A DNA stretch of 64,000 nucleotides. Origin: a virus (Duplodnaviria; Caudoviricetes). Where the stretch lies: the IMG/VR virus record IMGVR_UViG_3300030330_005139; one strand, written 5' to 3'. Position 1 is the first letter of the stretch. Each line of letters starts with the position of its first letter. Below are positions 851 to 16,288 of this stretch, one piece after another. The position numbers and the translations under genes are program-made. Under the pieces are notes generated by a model. That model had not been told where the DNA came from and did not search any database. It saw only the letters and a program-made list of their open reading frames with translations.

Positions 851-924
851 ATAAATAACCTCGTGTGAAGGAAGGCCGCGTCACTATCTGTGCGTGGAAA
901 GGACACCTTAGGGTGTCCTTTTTT
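851..924 (+). ncRNA. putative late small RNA
   Basis: Late promoter ATAAATA (851-857), GTGTGAAGGAAG, hairpin 876-897, terminator; no ORF. Confidence 0.35.
898..924 (+). terminator. intrinsic terminator
   Basis: GGACACC-TTAG-GGTGTCC followed by T run. Confidence 0.8.
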
Positions 925-965: not shown

Positions 966-3900
966 ATGCCCCTATCTCGATTAGATAACTTCCTCAAAAA
1001 CGTAAGAGGTAACGTAATCTACGTTGCAGGAAATGACCTGGATGCAACAGACGATATTGCCAATCAAGGCAATTCTAGGTCAAGACCCTTCCTGACAATT
1101 CAAAGAGCACTTCTTGAAGCGGTCAGGTTCTCTTATCAGATTGGTCTAAACAACGACAGGTTTGAATACACAACCATCGTCGTTGAACCTGGAGTTTATT
1201 ATGTTGATAATAGACCTGGTTGGATTCCCGATGGCGAAAACTTCAGACTCAGAAGTGGTGAAGTTACTGCCACTTACGAGGAGATGAATGCAAGGACAAA
1301 CTTTAACCTGCAGGATCCCAACAACAGACTTTATACTATTAATAGTATCTACGGCGGTGTTATTGTTCCCCGTGGATGTAGTATTGTAAGTGTTGATGCG
1401 GATAAGACTCAGATCAGACCCCTTTATATTCCGAGCTCGACGAACGAAAATATTGATCCAACAACGATCTTTAGAATCACAAGTGGAAGTTCTATTGACA
1501 GTTTGACATTCTTTGATGGTGACCCAACAAGCACTGTTTATACTGATTATACAACCACCAGAGTCAATCCTGACTATTCTCACCACAAACTGTCATCCAT
1601 TGAATATGTGGATGGTGTAAATGATGTGGACATTAAAGATGAATTTATTGATTATTCTACAAATCGTACAGATTTGCAGATGTATTATGAGAAGATTTCC
1701 ATTCTTTATGGTCAGAGTTCCAACAGACCTATCACCCCCACTTATCCTGCAGATGGTGTTGACCTCCAACCCCTCAGTAATGAATTTGAGATCATCTCTG
1801 TAAGTGAAATTTCAGAAACTGGAATTAGTAGCATCAAAGCCGGTGACGGTACAACTGCAACAATCACAATTACTGTTGATCTTGAAGATCCAATTGATGG
1901 AATTGAGATCAATGACCTCATCGAGATTGATGGAGTTTCCGATTCCCGTTACAACGGCAGATTTGTTGTTGACACTGTTCTTGCTCAGAATGATTTTGGT
2001 GTAACTCGATTCACTTATAAGACTCTTGTTGCTCCTGATAATGCTCTCCCAACGCCTTCTGGTTCATTCTTTACATTATCTGTTGACACAATCAATTCCC
2101 CAATTCCTAAGATTTCTAAAGTTTGTGTCAAGTCATCTTATGGTCTCTCTGGTCTGTTCTTTGATGGAGATAAGATTGGTGGAACAAAACAAACAACGGT
2201 AATTGGTTTTGATTATGAATCTTTCCAGAATGATAACAATGCTTTCATTCGTTATAACAGTTCAAGTGGAACATTTGACGATTCAACCTCTGTGAGTAAT
2301 CTTCACAGTGATTCTTCTGCAAAGTTTAAACCTGATTTTTATAATTACGGAGTCAAAGCAACAAATGATGTTGAGATTGAACTCGACAGTTGTGCCTTCA
2401 CTGGTGCTTACCAACACATTTGTTCAGAGAATGGAGCGAGAGTCTTCTCCAGATCTGCGACCTCTAATTTTGGACAGAGTTCCATGTGCTCAAGAGGATT
2501 TACTGACTCCTCCACAACAAGAGAAGACACTGGTTATATCTCCCACATCATCTCCCCAAAATCAAACCTCAACGACCCCATCAAGCTTGAGTGGGATCAG
2601 ATTGATGTTGAGAGAACTGCTGGAATTGGTTCCACATCCAGACTTTATCTTTACAATGAGACGAACAAGTCCAATCCACCTAAGTCAACACTTCAGGGTT
2701 ATCACATTGGTGCAGCGGATAATGATCAGTTGAGGGTCAGAATTCATGAGTCAGATTATCACGCTGACATTGTGATGCCTCCAACTGAGAAGGATGCAAT
2801 CAAGATCACTGGAACAAAGCGTTACAATGTTGGTAGAAATGTCTCAACAGGAAACAGCATTACCTCAAACACTCTGACACTCACTAGCAATCATTCACTT
2901 CTGAATGGTGAGACAATCAGAGTTATCAGTGATAATGCCAGACTTCCCGATGGTCTTGACTCTGGTTCGATTTATTACTCAATCACATCTGGTGTGAGTG
3001 CCGACCAACTAAAAATTGCAAAAACTTATAATGACGCAGTTCTTGGTGAAGCACTCACAATCAATAACTTGGGTGGAACACTGAGCGTTGAGAGTCGTGT
3101 TTCCGATAAGGATCCTGGAGATCTTGGACACCCAGTTCAGTTTGATGACTCTGTTAATCAGTGGTTCATTACAGTTGCAGAAAGTGCAACCGATAACACA
3201 ATTTACCACGTTGTTGTTGGTCTTGGAACTGCTACTCTTGGTGAAACCACGTCTTCAACTCTGTTTGAGAGAACTCCTGACACAAGGTCACTGACTGACA
3301 GGATTTATCGTTATCGTTATGTCATTCCTGTTTCTTCTGGAATCTCTTCGGCAAAAGTTCCTTATAACGGACAAGTCATCCAATCGTCCTCCGATGTGAG
3401 TGGTGCAACTAACGACGAGGTTGCTCTTCTTTACAGCCCCAGTGGTGTCTCGATGACCAACGCTGGTGAACTAAGAAACCCAAGTTACATCAAACAGACA
3501 ACTTACAGTGGAACCACTGCCTCTTACTTCACTGAGAGGAGACACAATCTTGCAGTGGGTAACATGGTTAAGATTGATAATGTCACCAGCTCCATCAACC
3601 CCACTGGTGTTGGTAACTCTGGTTACAATGGAGAGTTTACTGTTACTGGAATCACCAGTGCAACTGGTTTCACTGTCACTCTTGCGGATAACCCTGGAAC
3701 ATTCAGTAACAACACCTCTTCAAGAACAACAAGTCTCCCCACCTTCTCTCGTAACGAAGGTAATCACGATTTTTACATTTACAACACAGAAACCATTCAG
3801 GACTTCATTCCTGGATCGAGAGATGGAATTTATTATTTGACCGTTCTTAAGTCGTCAAACACTCCCACAGTTTCTCCATTCAATGATGAAGATCAGTTCG

Positions 3901-6794
3901 CCTTTAGTTCTCCCATAAAAGATCTTTATCCTCAAATTGACAGGGACAATCCTGTTAATAACCCTCCTGCTGCAAGTCTTTACGCTCTCCCCTATGAACT
4001 GGGAACAGTTGTTGTTGATGACCAGAAGAACAGTGTCACCAGAGGGATACTTGAGGAGTCTTATCTCGACTTTGGTGTTGGAATTGGTGTCAGTGACATC
4101 ACTTCGACAGACGCTGACACTCACACAATCTTCACTGATGTTGAGCATGGTCTCAACAGAATCACATCTCTGACCATCACAAATGGTGGTGCAGGTTATG
4201 GTAACGGTGTTGGTGCTGAGAACATTTACAACGCTGGACTGACAACCACGAGTAAAGCAGGAGGAGCAACTGCCAGAATCACAGTTGATGCTTCTGGAAC
4301 AATCACCGCAGTTAAGGTGATGGAAGGTGGTTCAGGTTATGCTGTTGGTGACACTCTGGAAGTGACAGGAACAGCAACCACAACTGGTTACTCGGTTGCA
4401 ACACTAACAGTTGCTAACATTTACGATAACACTGGAGACACAGTTGTTGTTGCTGGTGTTGGTTCTGAGACTTATTCTGGTTACAATGGACTTTACGCCA
4501 TTACTGGAATCACAACAGCAAAAGAAATCTCAGTAACCTCTGTAGAGAGTGTTTCTGGATTCACTACTACTGGTGTTGGTGCAACACTCACAAGTTCCTC
4601 TTTCACTAATGTGACTGGAGTTAGACTAGACATTTCTTCTCTGGTTTATAACAATGTAACTGGATTGGCAACAGTTACGACAGTTCAAAATCACGGATTG
4701 GTTGCTGGTAATCCCATTAAAATTGCTGGAGCGACTGATGACCTTTACAACAAACTGGTCCCAACAACTGAAATTGTTGGACTCACAACATTCATCGCTA
4801 AGATTGGAGTTTCAACTGACTCCCCTGCAGTTTCTGGAACACTGAGAGGTTACAAACCATGCGACGAATCGGCAGCTGGTTCGGTCAATTCCTCAAATGA
4901 GAATTTGGGTGGAAGAGCAGCGAAAATTTATGATGGTCCAACTGGAATTACAACCACACTCTCTGATGGAATTGTAACTCCATCTGTGGCTGAGATTGAA
5001 ATCTCCAACGTCGAGAACTTCAACTTTGAGATTGGTGACTTCCTTCAGATTGATGATGAGATATTGAGGATCAAATCAACTGTAACAGGAAACCCTGTCT
5101 CTGTGTTTAGAGGTGTTCTCTCAACAGAAGCTTCAACTCACGAGATTGGAAGTGTTGTGAGAAGAGTTAAGGTTCTCCCACGGGAATTGAGAGATCCCTC
5201 ATTGGTGTCCTCCAATGGCCACGTCTTCAACTCTGTTGGATTTGGACCTGGTAATCTTTCAACTTCTGCACCCAATAATCAAGCGATTTCTCTGTCCTCT
5301 GTTGAGCAGAAACACTCACATGCAAATAAAACCAACTCTGGTCAGATCATTTACAATGGAACTAACGAAAGAGCAGAGTACTTCGTCAACAACAGAAAGT
5401 TTGAAGCTGTAACAGGAAAAGAAATCATCTTTGATGTTCCAAACCCAACAGTAACTGGTGAAGACAGAGGTGCCTTTACAGATGAACCGAACGCCACCAG
5501 AGTTACTGCTGTAAGTGGTAACTTTGAAGGTGGAATTAGTGTTGATGGTGGTCCAGATGAGACAACAATCTCAACCTTTGATGGCCCTGTTGTTTTCTCC
5601 AACAAGGTAACGTCCACCTCCAATGATGGTCTGGAAGCAAACCACATCCTCATTCAGGGTGACTTGGATGTCTCCAGAAAGATCTCTGTCTCTGATGTCA
5701 TCCCAACAGAGGCAGGAAATGTTGGTGACATTGTTTATCATGGAGAACCAGTCACTGGTGGAACTCTTGGATGGGTTTATTCCTATCAGAATGAGTGGGT
5801 CACATTTGGCAGTGTTGGTCTTAACCCTCAAGGTGATGCACTTCTCACCAGAGTTGGTGTTGCAACAGCCACACTTGATGATGAACTGACAGTTCAAGTT
5901 GGGTCTGGTTCTTCACTGGTTGCAATTGATGAAACCGGTGTTGGAATTGGAACCACCGCTAACGAAGTGGCACTCAGAGTTGATGGTGAAGTTTACGCTA
6001 ACCTCTTCACTGGTGATGGTTCTGGACTGAGAAACCTCAGCAATGACAGTAAGTGGGCTGGAATTACAACTTATTATCCTATCGGACTGGCAGGTGTTGG
6101 TGTTGGAACAACCGCACCAGATGTGAATTACTCACTCACAGTGGGTTCACCTGGAACTGGTAAGACTGACCTCTTTGTTTATAACAAGGCAGTGTTTGCT
6201 GGTCAGGTTGAGTTTACGACAGGAAGTGGACTTGAAATCAACACTGGTGTTAGCAGCATCAGAACAGTTTACAGATTTGATCACCCCAGTGGTCAAATCA
6301 ACGCTGGAATTGTTACCACAACTTCCATTGTTGTTAACACTGACACACTTGTTTCTTCTGGCACAAGCATCGGCATTGGAACCACAGCACCAAATGCAGA
6401 TTTGGACATTGATGGTTCAACAAGATTGAAAACTTATCATGAAATCGTAAAAACAATTTCCAGTAACTCTGGAATTGCAATTATTGACCTCGCAGAAGCA
6501 CAAACATTCGCCATCACAGCGACTGAGGACATCACTGAGTTTACACTCACGAATGTTCCCACAAATTCCACAACAGCATTCACTCTGAAAATTACAAACG
6601 ATTCAACAACCGCAAGATCAATTACCGTCGATAACTTCAAGACCCCTGGTGGTTCTGTGATTGATGTTTATTGGCCTGGTGGCGTTGTTCCGACAGTAAC
6701 ACAGAGCACAGGTGCAGTTGACATTTATTCGTTCATGACTCTTGATGGTGGATCAACACTTTACGGCGCAACTAACGGACAGAACTTCTCATGA
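966..6794 (+). CDS. large virion structural / tail fibre protein
   Basis: 1942 aa; MPLSRLDNFLKN start typical of cyanophage fibres; G/T-rich beta repeats (GIGTT, GGAGY). Confidence 0.8.
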   Translation: MPLSRLDNFLKNVRGNVIYVAGNDLDATDDIANQGNSRSRPFLTIQRALLEAVRFSYQIGLNNDRFEYTTIVVEPGVYYVDNRPGWIPDGENFRLRSGEVTATYEEMNARTNFNLQDPNNRLYTINSIYGGVIVPRGCSIVSVDADKTQIRPLYIPSSTNENIDPTTIFRITSGSSIDSLTFFDGDPTSTVYTDYTTTRVNPDYSHHKLSSIEYVDGVNDVDIKDEFIDYSTNRTDLQMYYEKISILYGQSSNRPITPTYPADGVDLQPLSNEFEIISVSEISETGISSIKAGDGTTATITITVDLEDPIDGIEINDLIEIDGVSDSRYNGRFVVDTVLAQNDFGVTRFTYKTLVAPDNALPTPSGSFFTLSVDTINSPIPKISKVCVKSSYGLSGLFFDGDKIGGTKQTTVIGFDYESFQNDNNAFIRYNSSSGTFDDSTSVSNLHSDSSAKFKPDFYNYGVKATNDVEIELDSCAFTGAYQHICSENGARVFSRSATSNFGQSSMCSRGFTDSSTTREDTGYISHIISPKSNLNDPIKLEWDQIDVERTAGIGSTSRLYLYNETNKSNPPKSTLQGYHIGAADNDQLRVRIHESDYHADIVMPPTEKDAIKITGTKRYNVGRNVSTGNSITSNTLTLTSNHSLLNGETIRVISDNARLPDGLDSGSIYYSITSGVSADQLKIAKTYNDAVLGEALTINNLGGTLSVESRVSDKDPGDLGHPVQFDDSVNQWFITVAESATDNTIYHVVVGLGTATLGETTSSTLFERTPDTRSLTDRIYRYRYVIPVSSGISSAKVPYNGQVIQSSSDVSGATNDEVALLYSPSGVSMTNAGELRNPSYIKQTTYSGTTASYFTERRHNLAVGNMVKIDNVTSSINPTGVGNSGYNGEFTVTGITSATGFTVTLADNPGTFSNNTSSRTTSLPTFSRNEGNHDFYIYNTETIQDFIPGSRDGIYYLTVLKSSNTPTVSPFNDEDQFAFSSPIKDLYPQIDRDNPVNNPPAASLYALPYELGTVVVDDQKNSVTRGILEESYLDFGVGIGVSDITSTDADTHTIFTDVEHGLNRITSLTITNGGAGYGNGVGAENIYNAGLTTTSKAGGATARITVDASGTITAVKVMEGGSGYAVGDTLEVTGTATTTGYSVATLTVANIYDNTGDTVVVAGVGSETYSGYNGLYAITGITTAKEISVTSVESVSGFTTTGVGATLTSSSFTNVTGVRLDISSLVYNNVTGLATVTTVQNHGLVAGNPIKIAGATDDLYNKLVPTTEIVGLTTFIAKIGVSTDSPAVSGTLRGYKPCDESAAGSVNSSNENLGGRAAKIYDGPTGITTTLSDGIVTPSVAEIEISNVENFNFEIGDFLQIDDEILRIKSTVTGNPVSVFRGVLSTEASTHEIGSVVRRVKVLPRELRDPSLVSSNGHVFNSVGFGPGNLSTSAPNNQAISLSSVEQKHSHANKTNSGQIIYNGTNERAEYFVNNRKFEAVTGKEIIFDVPNPTVTGEDRGAFTDEPNATRVTAVSGNFEGGISVDGGPDETTISTFDGPVVFSNKVTSTSNDGLEANHILIQGDLDVSRKISVSDVIPTEAGNVGDIVYHGEPVTGGTLGWVYSYQNEWVTFGSVGLNPQGDALLTRVGVATATLDDELTVQVGSGSSLVAIDETGVGIGTTANEVALRVDGEVYANLFTGDGSGLRNLSNDSKWAGITTYYPIGLAGVGVGTTAPDVNYSLTVGSPGTGKTDLFVYNKAVFAGQVEFTTGSGLEINTGVSSIRTVYRFDHPSGQINAGIVTTTSIVVNTDTLVSSGTSIGIGTTAPNADLDIDGSTRLKTYHEIVKTISSNSGIAIIDLAEAQTFAITATEDITEFTLTNVPTNSTTAFTLKITNDSTTARSITVDNFKTPGGSVIDVYWPGGVVPTVTQSTGAVDIYSFMTLDGGSTLYGATNGQNFS

Positions 6795-8416
6795 GCCCAA
6801 TCGCTTTTAATGTCTTCAGAGGGACTCAGACAGATCTCGATCTGAATGGTCCCAATCTCTCCTTTCTTCAAAATGTGAGTGATGTTATTGTTGACAGCAC
6901 TGGTGGTGGTAATGCCACATTTGTTGGAATTGCAACAGCAACATTTCCCCAATCCGAAAGGGCAACTAACACAGGAACCATCACTTACCAGTGGTTTGAA
7001 CAGAAGGTTGGTGGTGATGTTAGATTACAAGATGGTGCAAACATTACAGGGACGGCGACAACAACACTCACTCTGAGTAACATCTTCTCTTCCGCAAACA
7101 ATGGAAGAGACTTTTACCAAGAAGTGAGTTACACACCTGGTCCAACAACTGGTAATGCAATCAACGAACCACTCAAATCTGCAGTTGGTGAATTGATTAT
7201 CATTCCCACACTTTCGTTTGTTGAGAACCCAGAACCCATTATTGTTGCTGAACAAGAGACAGCAAGGTTCGTTGCTGTTGCTGAAGTGAGTGATGAGAAC
7301 TTCCTTCCAATTACTTACTTCTGGACAAAGGATGGTGTCAAACTGACCGACAGTGACACTGTTGTTGGTTCTGCAACCACAACTCTTGAAATTACACTTG
7401 ACAGTGTTGGTCTTTCCACAATCCAATGTAACGCTGAAATTCAAGCTCAGGACAGAGTTGTAAGTGTTGGAAGCAGTGTTGTTGACCTGACAATCAGAGC
7501 ACCAGAAAGTAAGTTGAAGTTTGAGGCTTATGACACAAATGGAAATTATAAGACAATCACTCATGACATCTTGACTGATGGAACATTCACTCTCAACAGT
7601 GACACCTTTGGAAGTGATTATTCAATCATTCAGTTCACTGCACCTGAACTTGCCATTGATCGAGTGAGAGTGGATGCATTCGCCGCTGCTGGAAAGGACA
7701 GATCCATTCATAAAGGTGGTCAGGGTGGAAACTCAAGATTTGACCTTGACCTTGAGGTTGATGTTGAGTACACAATCATTGGAATCTCAAATAACACATC
7801 AATCTTTGTTTACAGACAGGCACAACTGATTGCTGTGATTGGTTCTGGTGGTGATGCTGGTTCCATTGGAGATGGTGGTGATGGTGGTGGAATCAACATT
7901 GATGGTTCAAGAGGAAGTGGAAAGACTCCTGGTGTTGGTGGAGAGTCACCCAACCCCGGAACATTGGAGTTGAATGGTGTGTTTGGTTCTCTCCTTGGTT
8001 CAAAGACAAGCAGCATCACAACTTATGTTGGTGACTCCATCGCAACAGGAAATGCTGGTGGACGGTCAATCTCTTGCACCAAGGGTTCTTATTGGACTGA
8101 CCTTGGAATCTCCCCATGTTCCAACAACTCCACAGATAAAATTAGGTTTTTTGATGACAGCGGACAAGAGATTGTTGACAGCATCAAAATCTTTAGAGGA
8201 TTCAAAGCAGGTTACACAATCAGCGACACCCGTGGTCTTGGAATCAATGATGGTGGAAATGGAGGAGGTGGTGCCACTGGTGGAGATGGTGGTGTGAATG
8301 GTTCTGGTGGTGGCGGTGGAAGTGGTTATTCCAACGGAACATTCGCTCTCCAGGAGTCGAGAAGAGGTGGAAACAACACGACAAACTCTTTCATGACATT
8401 TAGAATTCCCGATTAA
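6791..8416 (+). CDS. virion protein with Ig-like domains and glycine-rich C-terminus
   Basis: 541 aa; two ITY.W..G.T.TL Ig-like segments, GGxGG-rich tail; ATGA overlap with upstream gene. Confidence 0.75.
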   Translation: MSPIAFNVFRGTQTDLDLNGPNLSFLQNVSDVIVDSTGGGNATFVGIATATFPQSERATNTGTITYQWFEQKVGGDVRLQDGANITGTATTTLTLSNIFSSANNGRDFYQEVSYTPGPTTGNAINEPLKSAVGELIIIPTLSFVENPEPIIVAEQETARFVAVAEVSDENFLPITYFWTKDGVKLTDSDTVVGSATTTLEITLDSVGLSTIQCNAEIQAQDRVVSVGSSVVDLTIRAPESKLKFEAYDTNGNYKTITHDILTDGTFTLNSDTFGSDYSIIQFTAPELAIDRVRVDAFAAAGKDRSIHKGGQGGNSRFDLDLEVDVEYTIIGISNNTSIFVYRQAQLIAVIGSGGDAGSIGDGGDGGGINIDGSRGSGKTPGVGGESPNPGTLELNGVFGSLLGSKTSSITTYVGDSIATGNAGGRSISCTKGSYWTDLGISPCSNNSTDKIRFFDDSGQEIVDSIKIFRGFKAGYTISDTRGLGINDGGNGGGGATGGDGGVNGSGGGGGSGYSNGTFALQESRRGGNNTTNSFMTFRIPD

Positions 8417-8418
8417 GA

Positions 8419-8425
8419 CTAAATA
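8419..8425 (+). promoter_or_regulatory. T4-type late promoter
   Basis: CTAAATA in the intergenic gap. Confidence 0.7.
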
Positions 8426-8466
8426 AAGATAACAGTTTTGCGGTGGATAATGAAACCGCTAATTAA

Positions 8467-11400
8467 ATGGCAGAAAAGTCTTTTGTTGTAAGAAAGGGTC
8501 TTGAAGTTGCAGAAACTCTCATCTTTACCAATGATGAGATTAACAGTGTTGGAATTGCGTCCACTCAACCTGGTGGTAAGTTAACAGTCTCTGGAACCAT
8601 TGAAGGCGATGGAATTCGTTTGGTTGGTTTCAGCACTGCAGAAAGGGGTCTAAACATTGGTGTTGGTGGAACAGTTTTATCTGTTGAGACAAACACACAA
8701 AAGATTGGAGTTAACGAAGCGTCTCCATCGTTCCCACTGGAAGTCAAGGACCCAGCAGGAATTGGTGGGACAACTTTATTTGTGCATGGAAACATTGGAG
8801 TCAGCACCGACCTGATTGTTGATGAGACAGCAACGATTCAGAGAGACCTTACGGTCAATCGTCACTGTCTTGTCTCTGCTGCTGGCATCACAACATTAGC
8901 AAGTGAGACAAAGATTACTGGAGCAATCAGCGCTCATATCAACGCAACCAGCAGTCTTGCGGTTGGTTCGACTGCATCCTTTGGTGGAGCAGTTGCTTTC
9001 GCCAGTTCCATTGGTGGTCCTGAGGCACATATTGATGACCTGACTGTTAGACGCAACTTACATGTCAATGCAACAGGTTTCAGCACCATTGCAAGTGACC
9101 TGAGTGTGACTGGTAATGTCACAACTCACCTTGGAGTCACCAGCAGTCTCTCCATTGGTTCAACATCTGACTTCACTGGAGCAGTTGCTTTCGCCAGTTC
9201 GATTGGTGGTCCAGAAGCACACATTGATGACCTAACTGTCAGACGCAACTTGTTCGTCTCAAGTGCTGGTGTTGGTACCATTGCAGCAGACATTGCCATC
9301 ACTGGTTCTGTCACGGAACACCTTGGAGTTACCAGCAGTCTTTCCATTGGTTCCACTTCAGATTTCACTGGAGCAATCTCCTGTGCCAGTTCAATGACTG
9401 CTGTCACATTCTTTGGTGATGGTAATGGACTGACAAACATCAATCCAAGTGAAGTGAACTTGGATGGAACAGATCAAAGACTGGATGATCTGGACGTTGC
9501 CGGTGTCGGAACAGTCGCCACACTGGATGTTACTGGAGTTTCAACTTTCACAGGAGATGCCCACTTTGAGGCACAGATTGGAGTTGGAACAGCAGATCCA
9601 AAGACAGGATCTCTTCTTCATCTTTATGCCACTGCTCCTGAAATCTTCTTTGAGGAATCTGACGCACTTGCTGATAACAGAATTTGGTCTCAGAAAGTTG
9701 ATGGTGAAGAACTTCTCTTCGCTGCTGGTACCGATGCTCTTGGTTTTGGTACCACTCGGTTCAAGATGACTCGAACCCTCAACTCCATTGACACATTTGA
9801 AGCAGAGAAAGATGGAGAAACTTGGTTACTTGTTGACAACAGAGATAAGAGAGTTGGATTTGAAACTGCAGACCCAAAGGTTTCACTTCACGTTGTTGGT
9901 GACGCACAAGTAAGTGGTTTCTGTAGTGCAACCAACTTCTTTGGAGATGGTTCAGCACTCACCAACATTTCAGCATCTGAGGTTGACTTGGATGGAACCT
10001 ATCAAGACTTCCAAGGTCTGACTGTTGCTGGTGTTACCACACTCACAGAAGGATTGCGTTCAGTTGGATTTACAACTTTCCTTCAGAAGGTTCACATTCT
10101 CGATAACGTCCAACTTCAAATTGGTGGAGCAACAGAAGGTGCCACTGGAGACATGAGACTTTATCATGACACCACAAACAGTTTCATTGATGATAATGGA
10201 ACAGGTAATCTACAACTTAGAACTATCCTGGGAACAGGAATTGATATGATTGGTGGTGGTAGTACGGAGTACCTCTCAAGATTTATAAAAGATGGCGCTG
10301 TTGAACTTTATTATGACGGAAGTAAAAAATTAGAAACTCTCGAAGATGGTATTGATGTAACAGGTAATGTTGGGGGTGACACTTTAAACATCTCTGGAGT
10401 TGGAACCATCAGTGGTGGTTTGACAGGAAATGTGACTGGTAATGTTACTGGTGATCTGACTGGCACAGCCACTAACGCTACCAAGGTTAACATCGAGGGA
10501 TTGGATGCCACCGGAAACCGGGCCATCTTATTCCAGGGAGCCTCAGGAAATGCCGCCACCACTGAAGGTCGTGTTGCTTTGGCCTCCACTACTAACTATC
10601 CGAGGATTCAACCATCTACAGGAAAGATAACTGCTGCAGGTGGTGTTGTTGCCAATTTGACTGGTAATGTAACAGGTAACTTGACTGGTAATGTGACTGG
10701 CAGTGTCACGGGTAATGTGACGGGTGTTTCGACTGGATCAGATGCAGTCAAACTTACCACTGCAAGTGACGGAACAACCAGACAAATCCTCTTTGTTAGT
10801 GGGAGTAACACAGAATATGACGCCGTTGAGATTGACAGCGAATCCAGTGAGTTGACATACGTTCCATCAACAAACACATTCTCAGTTTCTAACATTGTTG
10901 GTGACTTGACTGGTAATGTTACAGGCAACGCAGACACAGCAACACTTGCAGCCACATCAACCATTGTTGCTGGTACTACAGCCTCCAGTTTCGTCAACTT
11001 CACTGATGGTGGAACAGGAGCACAGGCACTGAAGAGTGACACATCTTTGCGTTACACTCCCACATCACAGACACTTACAACTGGAACAGTTAATGCCGCT
11101 TTGACGGGTAATGTTACAGGTAATGTGACTGGTAACTTGACTGGTGATGTCACTGGTGATGTCACTGGTAACGCAGACACAGCAACAACTGCAACAAGTT
11201 CCACTAACATTCGGGTTGATTCTGATTCCACCAATGCTGATCGAATTATTGTATTCGCTGATAGTACAGGAACTAGCAAAAGAGCAAAGGCTGACACTAA
11301 CCTGACTTACAACCCATCCACAAACACACTGACAGCAGGAACTTATGACACAAGTTCTGACGAAAGAATCAAGAAAAACATCAATCCGATTGATGACGCT

Positions 11401-11619
11401 CTGGAGATTCTGAGTGAACTGAATGGTGTTAAGTTTGAGTGGAAAGAGAATGGTCTTCCTTCAGCAGGTGTCATTGCTCAGGATGTTGAGAAAGTTCTCC
11501 CAGAACTTGTCCATGAAGTTAACGAAGTCAAGAGAGTGAATTATGATGGACTTATCGGAGTCCTCATTGAATCAGTGAAGACTCTCACAAAGAGAGTTGA
11601 AGAACTTGAGAATAAATAA
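8467..11619 (+). CDS. tail fibre with C-terminal intramolecular chaperone (peptidase S74-like)
   Basis: 1050 aa; TGNV/TGDL repeats; SDERIKKNI..GVIAQDVEKVLPELV..VNY chaperone signature. Confidence 0.85.
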   Translation: MAEKSFVVRKGLEVAETLIFTNDEINSVGIASTQPGGKLTVSGTIEGDGIRLVGFSTAERGLNIGVGGTVLSVETNTQKIGVNEASPSFPLEVKDPAGIGGTTLFVHGNIGVSTDLIVDETATIQRDLTVNRHCLVSAAGITTLASETKITGAISAHINATSSLAVGSTASFGGAVAFASSIGGPEAHIDDLTVRRNLHVNATGFSTIASDLSVTGNVTTHLGVTSSLSIGSTSDFTGAVAFASSIGGPEAHIDDLTVRRNLFVSSAGVGTIAADIAITGSVTEHLGVTSSLSIGSTSDFTGAISCASSMTAVTFFGDGNGLTNINPSEVNLDGTDQRLDDLDVAGVGTVATLDVTGVSTFTGDAHFEAQIGVGTADPKTGSLLHLYATAPEIFFEESDALADNRIWSQKVDGEELLFAAGTDALGFGTTRFKMTRTLNSIDTFEAEKDGETWLLVDNRDKRVGFETADPKVSLHVVGDAQVSGFCSATNFFGDGSALTNISASEVDLDGTYQDFQGLTVAGVTTLTEGLRSVGFTTFLQKVHILDNVQLQIGGATEGATGDMRLYHDTTNSFIDDNGTGNLQLRTILGTGIDMIGGGSTEYLSRFIKDGAVELYYDGSKKLETLEDGIDVTGNVGGDTLNISGVGTISGGLTGNVTGNVTGDLTGTATNATKVNIEGLDATGNRAILFQGASGNAATTEGRVALASTTNYPRIQPSTGKITAAGGVVANLTGNVTGNLTGNVTGSVTGNVTGVSTGSDAVKLTTASDGTTRQILFVSGSNTEYDAVEIDSESSELTYVPSTNTFSVSNIVGDLTGNVTGNADTATLAATSTIVAGTTASSFVNFTDGGTGAQALKSDTSLRYTPTSQTLTTGTVNAALTGNVTGNVTGNLTGDVTGDVTGNADTATTATSSTNIRVDSDSTNADRIIVFADSTGTSKRAKADTNLTYNPSTNTLTAGTYDTSSDERIKKNINPIDDALEILSELNGVKFEWKENGLPSAGVIAQDVEKVLPELVHEVNEVKRVNYDGLIGVLIESVKTLTKRVEELENK
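8842..9417 (+). repeat. three 192-bp (64 aa) tandem coding repeats
   Basis: DLTV(R/N)R..TSSLS(I/V)GST units start at 8842, 9034 and 9226. Confidence 0.85.
11612..11618 (+). promoter_or_regulatory. T4-type late promoter
   Basis: ATAAATA upstream of the collar-protein trio. Confidence 0.6.
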
Positions 11620-11638
11620 GAGGAGGAGTTGATTTCTT

Positions 11639-12595
11639 ATGGCTGACAAGTATCAAGCGGGGGGATCGCTCCTTGCCGATAGTGAAGAGTTTCTAACAGG
11701 TAAAGATGGTACCTTCAGTGGAACGGTAAGTGCATCCGATTTCCATCTAACTGGAGGTATCCAGGCTGGATTGCCTTATCCAACTGGTACAGTTTTGTGG
11801 TGGCCAGCATCCTCAGCACCAACTGGTTGGAGGAAATGTAATGGTGATGCAATCAGCAGAACAACTTATTCTGATTTATTTGCACTCATTGGAACAACAT
11901 ATGGTTCTGGTAATGGTTCAACAACCTTCAACATTCCTACGATTAATGATGACCGTTTTATTCGGGGTTGGGGTAGTTCTGGTGGTCTTGATCCAGGGAG
12001 AACTTTTGGATCATCACAAAATAGTGACATAGGAAATCATAGTCACACATCAAACTCTGCCAATGCCCCACACACTCACACGGTGAACTCCAACGCCAAC
12101 CAGATGGGTCACAACCATCAGTTCGTGATTTCGGCAGCCAATATGCCACACCAACACAATGCCAACACTGGTGGTGCAAACGCTCCTCACAAACACGGCG
12201 GTAACGCGTCCGGCAATAACAATCACACCCACCCAATACGCAGAAGAGAAAACCGTTCGAACCCGGGCAATAACTATTCTGGACACTGGAACACCAACTC
12301 CCCGGCTGATAACGGCATGATGAGGCCTGCAGGAGGTCACAGCCACAATGTTGGTTTTGCAAATGCACAGGTTCCCCACAGTCATCCAGCCAACGTTGGT
12401 GCTGCCAATGCTCCTCACACTCACCCGACAGCTGTCGGGTCATCAAATGCTCCACACAATCATGGAACTAAGACCACTGCTGAAGCGAGTAATGTCTCAC
12501 ATACACACGCATTTGATGGTGGTGATGGTGGAGATAGTCCAGGGAACATAGTTAGGCCAGCTGCCTTCTCAATGATGGCTATTATCAAATTATAA
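11639..12595 (+). CDS. tail collar domain fibre protein with HxH repeats (paralogue 1)
   Basis: PTGW..CNG.AISRTTYSDLFA.IGTTYG.G.GSTTFN.P collar motif; 11 HxH motifs. Confidence 0.85.
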   Translation: MADKYQAGGSLLADSEEFLTGKDGTFSGTVSASDFHLTGGIQAGLPYPTGTVLWWPASSAPTGWRKCNGDAISRTTYSDLFALIGTTYGSGNGSTTFNIPTINDDRFIRGWGSSGGLDPGRTFGSSQNSDIGNHSHTSNSANAPHTHTVNSNANQMGHNHQFVISAANMPHQHNANTGGANAPHKHGGNASGNNNHTHPIRRRENRSNPGNNYSGHWNTNSPADNGMMRPAGGHSHNVGFANAQVPHSHPANVGAANAPHTHPTAVGSSNAPHNHGTKTTAEASNVSHTHAFDGGDGGDSPGNIVRPAAFSMMAIIKL

Positions 12596-12607
12596 GGAGG
12601 AATAAGA

Positions 12608-13513
12608 ATGCCATATAAAATAACAGGATCAGAAGTCGTTCAAGACGATCTTGACATATCTGGGAGAAATGCTACCTTTGTTGGTGTCGCAACTGCCGCG
12701 GCATTTGATGGTTTAAACGTAGCACCTACTGGTTCTATAGTTTGGTTCGCAGCTAATACAGCACCAACTGGTTGGCTTGCACTTGATGGTTCCAACGTCA
12801 GCAGAACAACTTATTCTAGATTATTCGCCATTTTTGGAACATCATTTGGTTCTGGTAATGGTTCAACAACCTTCGGGTTGCCTGACATGAGAGGTCGGTT
12901 CTTCAAACACCAAACGACCGGCAACGCGTTGACGAAGACAGGTGGAATTCCTCCACACAATCATTCACTTTCTGCCGCTAATGCAAAACACGAGCACCCT
13001 GGATCTAATTTCTCTAGCGTCAATGCACCACACGCTCATCCAGCCAACACTGGTAGTCACAACACTCCTCATTCTCATCCAGGAAATGCTGGTGGTGTAA
13101 ACGCTCCTCACGGTCATAACACAAACACAAATAATACAGGAGGTCACCACCATGAATTTACAGGAGCTGATGATATCGAAATTGACAACACTAGCTCCAG
13201 AGACAAATTTGTAAACGGCCCGGGTCCTCAGTCGCAAAATGCGAACACCTTCCCAGGTGGAGCTCATAGTCACCCCACAGTTAATTGCAACACTGTCAAT
13301 GCCCCACACAGCCATGCTGCGAACACCAGCAATAATCAGGTTCCCCATAATCACAGCTCGTCTATGACGAACACCAATGTTCCTCACACTCACCCAGCTA
13401 ACTTAAATACTGTTAACGCTCCACATAATCACGGTGCTGGTTCTCACACTGGCGGCGCCAGCAGTTATGTCAGACCCAAAAACATCGCTCTTCTTCCCAT
13501 CGTTAAGACCTGA
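12608..13513 (+). CDS. tail collar domain fibre protein with HxH repeats (paralogue 2)
   Basis: Collar motif, PDMRGRF, 11 HxH motifs, RPKNIALLPIVK C-terminus. Confidence 0.85.
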   Translation: MPYKITGSEVVQDDLDISGRNATFVGVATAAAFDGLNVAPTGSIVWFAANTAPTGWLALDGSNVSRTTYSRLFAIFGTSFGSGNGSTTFGLPDMRGRFFKHQTTGNALTKTGGIPPHNHSLSAANAKHEHPGSNFSSVNAPHAHPANTGSHNTPHSHPGNAGGVNAPHGHNTNTNNTGGHHHEFTGADDIEIDNTSSRDKFVNGPGPQSQNANTFPGGAHSHPTVNCNTVNAPHSHAANTSNNQVPHNHSSSMTNTNVPHTHPANLNTVNAPHNHGAGSHTGGASSYVRPKNIALLPIVKT

Positions 13514-13515
13514 TC

Positions 13516-14460
13516 ATGTCATTCAAAGTAGATTCTTCAACAATCATTGATAACAATCAAGATTATACATTCCAGGGAGGAACTTTCACAGGAACCTTAA
13601 CTTCCAATGGTGGGTTTAACTGGGGAGATGTTCCTGTTGGACTTATGCACTGGTGGGTTAAAAGTAACGTATCAGATCTCCCATCTAATTGGCTTCATTG
13701 TAATGGACAGGCAATCAGCAGAACAACTTATTCTGATTTATTTGCAGTCATTGGAACAACATATGGTTCTGGTAATGGTTCAACAACCTTCAACCTCCCT
13801 GACACCAGAAATCACTACATTATGGGTGATGTGTCTGGATCTGTTGGTGCTGGTCCACATGCACCAAAAATCTCTAACCACTCTCACCCCAGTAACACAT
13901 TAGGCCAAGCAGTAAACATTCCTCATACTCACACAGCGACTTCTGGTGGTGCGAACTCTCCACACACTCACAGCGCCAATACCTCTAACGCTTCCAATGC
14001 CCCACACACTCACAACGCGGCGACTAGTGCAGCCAACATGCCACACAGCCATAATGGCAGCACTGGCAACAATGGAAGTCACACTCATGCAGCCGGTACT
14101 GTTCCAACATCCGAAGTCGAAGCTTCGCCAGCTGGTAATCAAAATTATGCAGCCAAAAACGTAAGCCAACTCATTCCCGAGGGAACACGGCCTGCAGGAG
14201 GACACTCTCACCCCGTTGCTGGAACTGGAGCCAATGCTCCACATGGTCACATCTTGCCATGGTCTGGGAACGCACCTCATGGTCACACCGCCAACATCAA
14301 TCAATCAAACGCTCCACATAGTCACAGCTTATCGGTGAGTGACGCTAATGCTCCACATGTTCACAATACTGATGTAACAAATAACAACCCAGTTTCAGCC
14401 TCCAACAGTGGTGTGGAGTTGCATAGTTATCTCATGAGACTTATCATCAAGGTTACATAA
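13516..14460 (+). CDS. tail collar domain fibre protein with HxH repeats (paralogue 3)
   Basis: Collar motif and 11 HxH motifs. Confidence 0.85.
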   Translation: MSFKVDSSTIIDNNQDYTFQGGTFTGTLTSNGGFNWGDVPVGLMHWWVKSNVSDLPSNWLHCNGQAISRTTYSDLFAVIGTTYGSGNGSTTFNLPDTRNHYIMGDVSGSVGAGPHAPKISNHSHPSNTLGQAVNIPHTHTATSGGANSPHTHSANTSNASNAPHTHNAATSAANMPHSHNGSTGNNGSHTHAAGTVPTSEVEASPAGNQNYAAKNVSQLIPEGTRPAGGHSHPVAGTGANAPHGHILPWSGNAPHGHTANINQSNAPHSHSLSVSDANAPHVHNTDVTNNNPVSASNSGVELHSYLMRLIIKVT

Positions 14461-14502
14461 ACCACAATTTCAGTTATAATGTCAAAATATTGATTATCCA
14501 AA

Positions 14503-15621
14503 ATGAGATCTAAATTATTTTCCATCCTTGGTAACTCATATAAAGTTATACCGAATTATATCTCAAAGAAAGAAGCAATCAGACTTGGGAAGAAATTTGA
14601 GAAGGAAACTCGCGAAAAGAATTTACCAGGTGAGGCTGGAAACCTTGTGGGAGAAAACCACAACGACGAATACATGAATCCAGATCATGTTGCTCTTCTT
14701 TCTGAGAAGACCAAGTTCCTAAACAAGTTGTTTGGGACAAAGGTTGTTCCAAGTTATTGTTATTCTCGTGTTTACAGATCGGGAACTCATCTCGGAAGAC
14801 ACAAAGACAGGCCTGCCTGTGAAGTATCTCTGAGTGTTCATCTCTATGGAACAAAAGAGTGGGCATTTGGTATTGTCGATAAAGATGGAAAAGACATTGA
14901 AGTTGTTCTTCAACCTGGTGATGCCATCATCTATGATGCACCTTATGCGGAACACTGGAGACCACCATTTCCAGGAAATGATGATGATGTTTATGTTCAA
15001 ACATTTCAACATTATGTCTTTTTGAATGGAAAGTTTGAGAATGAGATCTTTGACAAGAAGAACTCAGTAACGAGTGTTGGTATTTCTAATGACCTAAAGT
15101 CTCAGATTTTTCTCTCTAAGGGTGTCTTTACAAAGAAAGAATGTAAAGAGATCATTAAAAGGGCAATCAAAGTGGATGATTGGGAACCACAACAAACTGT
15201 GGGAAAACATGAAGGTGTCAGGGTTTGTGAAGGATGGTTTATTCCAAAAATAGAAGAGATTGACTCCTTAATACACAGTAAGGTTGGTGAGATTCTAAGA
15301 AAATCGGAGATCTATTATACTGAACTTGGAGGAAGTCCCCAAATTAATGAGGATCATGGTTATACAGTTTTGAAGTACATACCTGGTGGAAAGTATGATC
15401 AGCATATTGATCAGGGCCCAACTAACAACAGAGTTCTCACAATGATTATTGCTCTCAATGATGATTATGAGGGTGGTGAGGTTGAATTCTGGGACGGAAA
15501 ATATAAGTTAAGATTAAATAAGGGAGATGTTTTAGTTTTCCCCTCCAATTTCATGTTCCCCCATGCAATTGTTCCGATCAAATCAGGGGAAAGATATTCT
15601 ATTGTTACTTGGATCACTTGA
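14503..15621 (+). CDS. tandem two-domain 2OG-Fe(II) oxygenase
   Basis: HKDRPACE..HWR and HID..HAI..RYSIVTW motif sets. Confidence 0.85.
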   Translation: MRSKLFSILGNSYKVIPNYISKKEAIRLGKKFEKETREKNLPGEAGNLVGENHNDEYMNPDHVALLSEKTKFLNKLFGTKVVPSYCYSRVYRSGTHLGRHKDRPACEVSLSVHLYGTKEWAFGIVDKDGKDIEVVLQPGDAIIYDAPYAEHWRPPFPGNDDDVYVQTFQHYVFLNGKFENEIFDKKNSVTSVGISNDLKSQIFLSKGVFTKKECKEIIKRAIKVDDWEPQQTVGKHEGVRVCEGWFIPKIEEIDSLIHSKVGEILRKSEIYYTELGGSPQINEDHGYTVLKYIPGGKYDQHIDQGPTNNRVLTMIIALNDDYEGGEVEFWDGKYKLRLNKGDVLVFPSNFMFPHAIVPIKSGERYSIVTWIT

Positions 15622-15622
15622 T

Positions 15623-16288
15623 ATGAATTACGAACTTGAATTAATTGAAGAGATGAGGAAGGCTCACTCCAATGATGATTTTATAAGAGAATTTAAAGGA
15701 AACTTATCACCCAAAGTTTGTAAACAATTAATTGATCTGTTTGAGAAAGAGACATATCTCACTACTCCTGGACAAACTGGAGCTGGACTGGACACTACGA
15801 TCAAAGATAGTCTAGATCTAATGATAGGTTACGCAGTAGTAGAGTCCAAAAAAGAAAAAAGAAGAAAGAAGTGGGCGAAGTTGGATTCAATTCTCTGCGA
15901 TGCCTTGAGTAAAGGAGTTAAGGAATATTACAACGAATTTAAGGTTTTTGATGAAAAGTATCCACATGAGTGGACGGCATTTAACCATCCTGCACTTGTT
16001 GACACTGGATATCAAATTCAAAAGACGACTCCAAAATCTGGTGGATACGTTCCACACCATGATTCAAGGTCAGAATTCATAGAAGATCGCCCTCAGACAA
16101 GACAGCTGACATTCATCTGGTATCTAAACGATGTTGATGGTGGACCAACTGGGTTCATCACAGGGAAAGACATTCAACCAGAGGAAGGAAAGTTGGTTCT
16201 CTTCCCAGCAACATGGAACATGGTTCACTGGGGTGTTCCACCCAACACGGGAAACAAATATATTGTTACAGGTTGGTTGTATGATTGA
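15623..16288 (+). CDS. 2OG-Fe(II) oxygenase (prolyl-hydroxylase-like)
   Basis: HHD..WYLND..FPA.W..HWG..KYIVTGW; start re-called to ATG 15623. Confidence 0.85.
   Translation: MNYELELIEEMRKAHSNDDFIREFKGNLSPKVCKQLIDLFEKETYLTTPGQTGAGLDTTIKDSLDLMIGYAVVESKKEKRRKKWAKLDSILCDALSKGVKEYYNEFKVFDEKYPHEWTAFNHPALVDTGYQIQKTTPKSGGYVPHHDSRSEFIEDRPQTRQLTFIWYLNDVDGGPTGFITGKDIQPEEGKLVLFPATWNMVHWGVPPNTGNKYIVTGWLYD

What the first reader, a model, noticed from the sequence alone, without database searches (positions are those of the whole stretch)
11639..14460. Three tandem fibres with an identical 6+5 HxH register but unrelated tips
Seen: each collar-domain paralogue has 11 HxH motifs, mostly N-x-P-H-x-H and spaced ~11-15 residues apart. 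Six lie before and five after a ~35-40 aa unrelated segment. Known: in the T4 gp37 needle, HxH pairs from three chains bind iron along an out-and-back strand with the receptor-binding tip at the turn. Inference: needles holding ~11 metal ions each. The matched register across exactly three genes allows a heterotrimer or mixed assembly with combinatorial tips, or three alternative receptor-binding homotrimers. Relevant to the phage-bound iron (Ferrojan horse) hypothesis.
Basis: partly seen in the sequence, partly recalled or inferred. Interest (0 to 1): 0.7.

Follow-up and report, generated by a model that had tools for sequence, protein, structure and literature searches.

The report
Three tandem histidine-needle cyanophage fibres
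A marine T4-like cyanophage has three neighbouring genes for short fibres built like the metal-stapled tip of phage T4's long tail fibre; they are most likely three separate host-recognition needles, an extended but essentially known design.

Summary
ORFs A (11639-12595), B (12608-13513) and C (13516-14460) each have a Pfam Collar domain followed by 11 HxH motifs. Six motifs come before a 35-38-residue segment and five after it. All 22 histidines are invariant in 16 orthologues. A profile of the family matches the T4 gp37 tip (2XGF, E 6e-8) and the Anabaena phage A-1(L) long fibre (8KEC, E 2e-15). Both are homotrimers. A three-copy model of A scored 0.58 against 0.00 for controls, with every HxH histidine at the interface.

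The most likely reading is three homotrimeric receptor-binding needles, each with 11 metal sites, its own conserved N-terminal anchor and a fast-diverging tip. The heterotrimer idea is not excluded but is unlikely (about 7%). A parallel 8+7 clade in giant-virus-like contigs has three copies in six contigs and two in a seventh. Spacing inside paralogue B changes on its own. Core residues show no size compensation between paralogues. The closest cultured cyanophages have no collar gene at all.

An "n outgoing, n-1 returning" count holds for 67 of 79 needles examined. Metal identity and the docking site on the virion are untested. Earlier unchecked notes of this scan report similar tandem needle genes on other DNA.

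The parts
11639..12595 (+). Needle fibre A, 318 aa. N-terminal anchor residues 1-45, collar 46-133, outgoing arm with six HxH 134-198, tip 199-233, returning arm with five HxH 234-290, C-terminal strand 291-318.
12233..12337 (+). Tip (turn) segment of A, residues 199-233.
   Evidence: It is 10-21% identical to the tips of B and C. It is 65-100% identical in orthologues at 74-91% overall identity and 24% in deep orthologues. It is not in the confident trimer interface.
12608..13513 (+). Needle fibre B, 301 aa. Collar at about residues 42-98, outgoing arm 117-182, tip 183-219 (13154-13264), returning arm 220-275. It has its own AAGGAGG ribosome site.
13516..14460 (+). Needle fibre C, 314 aa. Collar at about residues 55-100, outgoing arm 122-191, tip 192-229 (14089-14202), returning arm 230-283. 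Its start lies 2 nt after the stop of B.
8467..11619 (+). Upstream 1050-aa tail fibre with a C-terminal Peptidase_S74 self-cleaving chaperone domain. It ends 19 nt before A.
966..6794 (+). First gene of the fibre operon, 1942 aa. Its first ~1,650 residues are 34% identical to the start of the ACG-2014f 1955-aa fibre (printed alignment cut near residue 1,425). That fibre carries a 6+5 needle at its C-terminus; the window protein has no collar.
6791..8416 (+). 541-aa protein of unknown function (phrog_24848), lying between the two large fibre genes.
896..923 (+). Strong terminator-like hairpin (12-bp stem and a T run) just before the operon. The terminator-like sites found between 966 and 14460 have stems of only 5-8 pairs.
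14503..16288 (+). Two 2OG-Fe(II) oxygenase genes (372 and 241 aa) directly downstream. ORFs of the same lengths follow C in the relatives L003 and L086.

Best explanation
A, B and C are three paralogous, probably co-transcribed genes for short stand-alone tail fibres of a marine T4-like cyanomyovirus. Each most likely forms its own homotrimer. Within a chain, a 45-residue paralogue-specific N-terminus docks the fibre on the virion. The collar domain closes the trimer. The chain then runs out as a beta-strand carrying six HxH pairs, makes a 35-38-residue tip, and runs back with five HxH pairs that sit between the outgoing ones. A hydrophobic C-terminal strand returns to the collar. At each level three HxH pairs give six imidazoles around one metal ion, as in T4 gp37, so each needle of roughly 22-28 nm would hold 11 ions. 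The small trimeric tip contacts the host receptor. Three different tips give the phage three receptor specificities. The identical 6+5 count is inherited from the ancestor of the three genes. It is hard to change because both arms must gain or lose a unit together. Shown here: the gene anatomy, homology to gp37 and A-1(L) gp34, conservation, and copy numbers in relatives. Supported only by a model: the trimer with inward-facing histidines. Inferred: metal binding, receptor binding at the tip, homotrimer rather than heterotrimer, and the docking role of the N-terminus.
For: Collar domain in all three proteins. 11 HxH split 6+5, with all 22 histidines invariant in 16 sequences. The family profile hits 8kec_A, the A-1(L) long tail fibre, at E 2.2e-15, and 2xgf_A, the T4 gp37 tip, at E 5.9e-8 with both collar and needle aligned. 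A-1(L) gp34 is a homotrimer whose gp37-like arm binds the host surface (PMC10966104). T4 gp37 itself reads 3 + 4 HxH around a 37-residue gap.

Complex model of A x3 with 4 Fe riding along: score 0.58, best of 3 controls 0.00. That mark was reached by 20 of 30 proteins solved as pairs of one chain and by 1 of 23 solved as single chains. These counts hold only roughly, because my own alignment and a small molecule were used. The runs agree in at least 73% of contacts and the partner pLDDT is at least 62. Every HxH histidine and alternate residues of both arms are in the interface; the tip is not. Similar complexes are solved, so the pass may reflect likeness to them.

The N-terminal 45 residues are the best conserved part among orthologues (68-98%) but differ between paralogues (21-27%). 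The tips fall to 24-33% identity in deep orthologues. A, B and C each form a well-supported orthologous clade. Evidence for homotrimers: the parallel 8+7 clade has one contig with two copies; B's internal spacing varies alone; there is no core size compensation; and the ACG-2014f fibre and its ~1,900-aa relatives carry a single fused needle.
Against: No metal, oligomer or binding measurement exists. The trimer model may come from memory of 2XGF and 8KEC. The docking site is unknown, and 45 residues is a much shorter anchor than the 155-residue shoulder of A-1(L) gp34. Exactly three copies with equal register are kept in all six complete contigs of the window's clade. Three-copy arrays also recur in other virus lineages, which the homotrimer reading leaves as coincidence or as an unexplained need for equal length. 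Giant cyanophage fibres do vary between 5+4, 6+5 and 7+6, so the count is not frozen.
Confidence: 0.7

Rival explanations
1. Obligate A-B-C heterotrimer. One chain of each gene assembles into a single asymmetric needle. The matched 6+5 register lines up the 11 metal sites, and the three different turn segments form one composite receptor-binding head.
For: There are exactly three genes with the same HxH count in all six complete contigs of the clade. Three-copy arrays with matched registers also occur in an unrelated giant-virus-like clade and in unchecked earlier notes. The T-F-x-G core of the N-terminal stalk is shared by A, B and C. B and C are 2 nt apart, which would suit coupled translation. 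At five inward positions one paralogue has a bulky residue and the other two have small ones.
Against: I know of no heterotrimeric phage fibre (own knowledge). The solved relatives are homotrimers. One contig of the parallel clade has only two copies. ACG-2014f has two tandem collar genes, and S-B43 and P-TIM68 have none. Paralogue-specific spacings differ at 6 of 9 intervals, and B changes 14 to 13 on its own in L004 and L091. The variance of summed core volumes equals the shuffled expectation, P = 0.59. Tip lengths change independently: 38/40/41 against 39/34/46.
Confidence: 0.07
2. Random mixed trimers. The three chains co-assemble in any combination, giving up to ten tip combinations per virion.
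For: The register is equal. The histidine ladder and the collar core (GSGNGSTTF) are shared. In the giant-virus-like clade the N- and C-termini of the paralogues are nearly identical, so mixing would be hard to avoid there.
Against: In the window's clade the N-termini, the collar interface segment (A: FIRGWG; B: FFKHQT; C: YIMGDV) and the C-termini are paralogue-specific. Each is largely conserved within its orthologue group. That pattern points to self-matched packing.
Confidence: 0.05
3. The proteins form homotrimeric needles, but they do not serve mainly for receptor recognition at the tip. They could be baseplate struts, spacers that set the distance to the cell, or a metal store. Alternatively, binding occurs along the shaft.
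For: The anchor is very short. The closest cultured relatives lack these genes altogether, so they are not essential parts. The needle arms also evolve quickly, with non-histidine identity of 44-53% in deep orthologues.
Against: In T4 gp37 and A-1(L) gp34 this module is the receptor-binding part (Bartual et al. 2010, from own knowledge). The turn segment is the most divergent part between paralogues and in deep orthologues, as expected for a binding surface.
Confidence: 0.1
4. The histidine ladder holds zinc, nickel or another ion rather than iron, or holds no metal, so the link to phage-bound iron fails.
For: T4 gp12, which shares the collar domain, binds zinc through histidines (own knowledge; 1ocy matched). 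Iron is very scarce in the open ocean.
Against: T4 gp37, the solved relative with a multi-site HxH needle, binds Fe(II) at every HxH layer (Bartual et al. 2010, from own knowledge; summarised in PMC11705849).
Confidence: 0.2

Closest known systems
Receptor-binding tip of the phage T4 long tail fibre, gp37 residues 785-1026 (PDB 2XGF)
   Same: Collar domain, then an out-and-back needle with HxH pairs on both arms and a ~35-residue turn that forms the binding head. The C-terminus returns to the collar. The profile match is E 5.9e-8 over both collar and needle. The gap between the arms is 37 residues in T4 and 38-41 here.
   Different: T4 has 7 HxH (3 + 4) at irregular spacing, at the end of a 1026-aa fibre. 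Here there are 11 HxH (6 + 5) at a regular ~13-residue period in stand-alone 301-318-aa proteins, and the gene is triplicated.
Long tail fibre gp34 of Anabaena myophage A-1(L) (PDB 8KEC; PMC10966104)
   Same: This is the best sequence match among solved structures, at E 2.2e-15. It is a short (379 aa) stand-alone homotrimeric fibre of a cyanophage. Its arm is gp37-like and binds the host surface.
   Different: gp34 has a 155-residue shoulder domain that grips the baseplate wedge, whereas A, B and C have only 45 residues before the collar. gp34 has fewer HxH motifs, and the paper describes a single long-fibre protein.
Giant (~1,900-aa) fibres of T4-like cyanophages, for example the ACG-2014f 'putative short tail fiber' (AIX30210.1)
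   Same: The C-terminal 270 residues are a collar plus a 6+5 HxH needle with almost the same spacing as A (11, 15, 12, 13, 13 | 39 | 13, 13, 13, 15) and 33% identity. Their long N-terminal body is homologous to window gene 966-6794.
   Different: There the needle is fused to the giant protein and occurs once. Relatives have 5+4, 6+5 or 7+6 motifs. In the window the giant protein has a different C-terminus, and the needles are three separate genes.
Three tandem 8+7 HxH needle genes in giant-virus-like contigs (L088, L089, L095-L099)
   Same: Stand-alone ~350-aa collar-plus-needle proteins in a tandem array directly after a long fibre gene. The HxH count is equal within the array, and the turn segments and arm sequences differ.
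   Different: 15 motifs instead of 11. The N- and C-termini are nearly identical between paralogues. The virus type differs (NCLDV-type capsid genes and an AEP primase). One contig has two copies, the second a type 2/3 hybrid.

Membership tests
Pfam PF07484 Collar (phage tail collar domain) | Match to the family model above its gathering score. | tested here: met
   A 70.8, B 79.0 and C 73.0 bits against a cut-off of 24.
T4 gp37-type collar-needle-head receptor-binding tip | Sequence homology to the solved tip over both collar and needle. | tested here: met
   Profile A2 against 2xgf_A: E 5.9e-8, with two stretches covering the collar (chain 23-109) and the needle (chain 126-221).
T4 gp37-type collar-needle-head receptor-binding tip | HxH motifs on an outgoing and a returning arm, separated by a ~30-40-residue turn. 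| tested here: met
   6 | 38-41 | 5 in A, B and C. T4 gp37 computed the same way gives 3 | 37 | 4.
T4 gp37-type collar-needle-head receptor-binding tip | Homotrimer with the HxH histidines facing the threefold axis. | tested here: met
   In silico only. A x3 scored 0.58 against a best control of 0.00 (mark reached by 20 of 30 solved pairs of one chain and 1 of 23 single chains). All 22 histidines are in the interface, contact agreement is at least 73% and pLDDT is at least 62. The pass may reflect memory of 2XGF and 8KEC.
T4 gp37-type collar-needle-head receptor-binding tip | One Fe(II) bound at each HxH layer. | not testable with these tools
   Needs ICP-MS, X-ray fluorescence or a structure.
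T4 gp37-type collar-needle-head receptor-binding tip | The module sits at the C-terminal end of a long distal fibre subunit. | tested here: not met
   A, B and C are 301-318 aa with 45 residues before the collar. No protein of 558-2000 aa is a close full-length relative; the fused forms are at most 36% identical.
A-1(L) gp34-type short long-tail-fibre | N-terminal ~155-residue shoulder domain that anchors to the baseplate wedge. | tested here: not met
   The alignment to 8kec_A starts at chain residue 159, the start of its arm. A, B and C have no counterpart of residues 1-155.
T4 gp12 short tail fibre | Collar followed by a globular head with a single histidine-bound zinc; long N-terminal shaft. 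| tested here: not met
   Only the collar aligns, to 1ocy_A at E 2.9e-6 over profile positions 40-114. Here the collar is followed by an 11-site needle.
Hypothetical heterotrimeric (A-B-C) fibre | Exactly three paralogues with equal register in every relative. | tested here: inconclusive
   Met in 6 of 6 complete contigs of the window's clade. Not met in the parallel clade, where L099 has two. Not met across cyanophages, which carry 0, 3 or 4 collar genes of differing architecture.
Hypothetical heterotrimeric (A-B-C) fibre | Size compensation between chains at axis-facing positions. | tested here: not met
   Pairwise volume correlations are -0.01, 0.17 and -0.11. The variance of the sum is 3314 against 3186 in shuffles, P = 0.59, for 28 positions.

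The most novel reading that the evidence does not exclude
The three genes encode the three chains of one asymmetric heterotrimeric metal needle, or a set that co-assembles. Tandem needle arrays in phages and algal giant viruses would then keep equal HxH counts because the chains must share metal sites. This would be the first heterotrimeric viral receptor-binding fibre, with a composite tip built from three unrelated segments.
Probability: 0.07. Interest if true: 0.8.

Novelty: new member of a known kind. Interest (0 to 1): 0.4.

Why it matters
If the needles bind iron as T4 gp37 does, each trimer holds 11 ions, against 7 in T4. A virion carrying several copies of three needle types could hold far more metal than the 42 ions of T4's six fibres. 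That bears on the idea that marine phages lock up iron in iron-poor water. The copy number per virion and the metal identity are unknown.

The three tips on one constant scaffold give a compact natural system for studying how cyanophages change or widen host recognition. The 'n out, n-1 back' rule is a simple way to read needle length, from 5 to 15 sites here, from sequence alone. The recurrence of equal-register tandem arrays, also in giant-virus-like contigs, is a small open question.

Tried and rejected
- Megablast of 8400-15700 against cultured phages found nothing.
- The window's own genome is not held, and the nearest record, G001, has no collar gene.
Copy numbers therefore came from the search for related loci and from contigs laid on the window.
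- The AlphaFold2 monomer of A had mean pLDDT 33. This is unusable, as expected for an obligate trimer, so no fold search was made.
- Only one complex job was allowed and it went to A x3. A-B-C, BBB and CCC were not modelled.
- The volume-compensation test for a heterotrimer showed no signal.
- Regional dN/dS is noisy. It shows only that the N-terminal anchors are the most constrained part and that tips have the highest dN in the deep comparison.
- The collar tree gives clean A, B and C orthologue clades. It does not resolve how the three relate to each other or to the fused cyanophage needles.
- There is no T4 late-promoter motif TATAAATA in the window, and sigma-70-like sites are at chance level.
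- Metatranscriptome contigs cover only small pieces of A and of the B/C junction, and they may be DNA carry-over. This is no evidence of expression.
- Bartual et al. 2010 (PMC2996694) is not held. What I say about iron in gp37 rests on own knowledge and on its summary in PMC11705849.
Full report
**Observation.** The window holds three adjacent + strand ORFs: A at 11639-12595 (318 aa), B at 12608-13513 (301 aa) and C at 13516-14460 (314 aa).
- Each has a Pfam Collar domain at 71-79 bits against a cut-off of 24.
- Each has exactly 11 HxH motifs. Spacings within an arm are 11-15 residues, with one gap of 38, 40 or 41 between the sixth and seventh motif.
- In each protein 22 of the 24-27 histidines lie in these motifs. 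Shuffled sequences average about 2 HxH, with maxima of 7, 8 and 10 for A, B and C.
- N-x-P-H-x-H accounts for 19 of the 33 motifs.
- The paralogues are 37-44% identical overall. Collars are 38-47% identical, and the turn segments only 10-21%.
- In an alignment of 16 orthologues and paralogues, all 22 motif histidines are invariant.

**Context.** The window is part of a T4-like cyanomyovirus.
- It encodes gp6-, gp7- and gp8-type baseplate wedge proteins, neck proteins and several giant structural proteins.
- Its gp6 is 67-69% identical to that of Synechococcus phages S-B05 and S-B43 and of Prochlorococcus phage P-TIM68.
- A strong terminator-like hairpin at 896-923 precedes a run of genes with only short-stemmed (5-8 pair) terminator-like sites among them. 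The run is a 1942-aa fibre (966-6794), a 541-aa protein, a 1050-aa fibre ending in a Peptidase_S74 chaperone domain, then A, B and C, then two 2OG-Fe(II) oxygenases.
- A starts 19 nt after the upstream fibre. B has its own AAGGAGG site. C starts 2 nt after the stop of B.
- The stretch occurs in marine metagenomes from several studies. Two independent contigs at about 95% identity run across all three genes.

**What the proteins are.** A profile of the family matches two solved homotrimeric fibres.
- The long tail fibre gp34 of Anabaena phage A-1(L) (8KEC) matches at E 2.2e-15.
- The T4 gp37 receptor-binding tip (2XGF) matches at E 5.9e-8, with both the collar and the needle aligned.
- The T4 gp12 collar matches more weakly.

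The gp37-like arm of A-1(L) gp34 binds the host surface (PMC10966104). T4 gp37, counted the same way, has 3 + 4 HxH around a 37-residue gap. That fits the seven iron ions reported for it (Bartual et al. 2010, own knowledge; summarised in PMC11705849).

A model of three copies of A, with four Fe riding along, scored 0.58 against 0.00 for the best of three controls.
- That mark was reached by 20 of 30 proteins solved as pairs of one chain and by 1 of 23 solved as single chains. The counts hold only roughly, because my own alignment and a small molecule were used.
- The runs agree in at least 73% of contacts, and the partner pLDDT is at least 62.
- The confident interface holds all 22 HxH histidines, alternate residues along both arms, the N-terminal stretch 17-39, the collar segment 102-113 and the C-terminal strand. 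It does not hold the turn 199-231.
- Similar complexes are solved, so this shows likeness to them, not proof.

**A general rule.** The simplest reading, which is my inference, is that the returning sites sit between the outgoing ones. Both ends of the needle are then capped by outgoing-arm sites, and the two arms must change length together. The window's 11 sites are not the maximum. Synechococcus phage Sf-FR1 and a giant-virus-like clade have 15.

From the strand length between the first and sixth motif (62-67 residues), the needle alone is about 20-22 nm long (own estimate, assuming about 3.3 A per residue). Adding a collar and a tip gives about 26-28 nm, and scaling the 180 A, 224-residue A-1(L) arm gives about 22 nm, so each fibre would be roughly 22-28 nm long.

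**Relatives and copy number.**
- All six complete contigs of the window's own clade keep three genes with the same paralogue-specific spacing patterns. These are the window, L003, L090, L091, L004 and L092, with A orthologues at 62-91% identity.
- A, B and C each form a well-supported orthologue clade, so the triplication predates this clade.
- No long protein is a close full-length relative of A, so the proteins do stand alone.
- A family of ~1,900-aa cyanophage fibres carries a collar-needle fused at the C-terminus, with 5+4, 6+5 or 7+6 motifs.
- Over about 1,650 residues the body of the ACG-2014f member is 34% identical to window gene 966-6794, which has no collar.
- Collar genes are accessory in cyanomyoviruses. 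The complete genomes of S-B43 and P-TIM68 have none. ACG-2014f has three of different architecture. Sf-FR1 has four.

**A parallel case.** Contigs with NCLDV-type capsid genes and an AEP primase carry a ~1,550-aa fibre gene followed by tandem ~350-aa collar-needle genes. Each needle has 8+7 HxH.
- Six contigs have three copies.
- L099 has two between the same flanking genes. Its second copy has the N-terminus of type 2 and the arms and tip of type 3, as unequal crossing-over would produce.
- In this clade the N- and C-termini are nearly identical between paralogues.

**Homotrimers or a heterotrimer?** Nothing here proves either.

For a heterotrimer:
- There are exactly three genes with equal register in the whole clade.
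- Three-copy arrays recur elsewhere, including in unchecked earlier notes of this scan.

Against a heterotrimer:
- The solved relatives are homotrimers.
- One contig of the parallel clade has two copies, and ACG-2014f has a two-gene tandem.
- Spacing differs between paralogues at six of nine intervals. B changes from 14 to 13 on its own in two lineages.
- Tip lengths change independently: 38/40/41 against 39/34/46.
- Axis-facing residues show no size compensation between chains, P = 0.59.

The N-terminal 45 residues are the most conserved part of each orthologue group (68-98%) but differ between paralogues (21-27%). The collar interface segment is likewise paralogue-specific and largely conserved within each group. 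I read this as three self-consistent trimers, each with its own docking site. I put homotrimers at about 85% and an obligate heterotrimer at about 7%.

**Verdict.** These are new members of the known gp37-type collar-needle family of receptor-binding fibre tips. They are unusual in being short stand-alone proteins, triplicated, and long (11 sites).
- Metal binding, the metal's identity, tip-mediated receptor binding and the docking site are inferences.
- HxH fibres in marine phages and their possible role in iron cycling are already in the literature (PMC11705849; Bonnain et al. 2016, as cited in PMC11724200).
- Interest is moderate. The main open point is why tandem needle arrays keep equal counts and so often come in threes.

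Noticed in passing
L088:2051-11068; also L089 and L095-L099: Contigs with two NCLDV-type double-jelly-roll capsid genes (PF16903 + PF04451) and an AEP primase carry a ~1,550-aa beta-helix fibre gene. It is followed by three tandem 350-aa phage-type collar plus 8+7 HxH needle genes (two in L099), with nearly identical N- and C-termini. Phage-style metal needles therefore seem to occur in giant-virus-like genomes.
   Followed up: partly
L099:7001-9150: This contig has only two needle genes between the same flanking genes. The second has a type-2 N-terminus and collar (KIKTF, IAPWYGS) joined to type-3 arms and tip. That pattern is expected from unequal crossing-over within the array.
   Followed up: partly
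window 14503-16288: Two 2OG-Fe(II) oxygenase genes, with three oxygenase domains in all, directly follow gene C. ORFs of the same lengths follow C in the relatives L003 and L086. ACG-2014f has a PiuC-type oxygenase just upstream of its needle-bearing fibre. A role in modifying the Asn/Pro/His-rich needles is possible, but these genes are very common in cyanophages.
   Followed up: no
L162:633-1992 (Synechococcus phage ACG-2014f, record 209-210 kb): Two tandem small collar proteins (236 and 223 aa as open frames) with collagen-like G-x-y repeats before the collar. They have three to four closely spaced HxH on the outgoing side only, followed by a histidine-free Thr/Asn-rich stretch. The C-terminal motif RPxNxxLMYIIKT is of the same kind as the ending of A, B and C (VRPxxxxMxxIIKx).
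   Followed up: no
P0126, P0128, P0143, P0155 and others: Proteins of Candidatus Saccharibacteria with a prepilin-type N-terminal signal, a Collar domain, PF21939 and fibronectin type III domains. Those checked (P0141-P0143, P0155) have three repeats of closely spaced HxH groups about 176-184 residues apart. Some bacteria seem to mount the phage collar module on pilin-like proteins.
   Followed up: no
window 966-6794: The 1942-aa fibre is 34% identical over ~1,650 residues to the ACG-2014f 1955-aa fibre but ends in a different C-terminal domain (phrog_9017) instead of the collar-needle. The receptor-binding end of this giant protein has been swapped between phages.
   Followed up: partly
window 896-923: A strong terminator-like hairpin (12-bp stem and a T run) lies just before the fibre gene run. 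The window contains no T4-type late promoter motif TATAAATA.
   Followed up: no
window A/B/C and L004: The three gaps between motifs 6 and 7 sum to 119 residues in both the window (38+40+41) and the 62%-identical L004 lineage (39+34+46). The sum is not constant in the 8+7 clade, so this is probably coincidence.
   Followed up: partly
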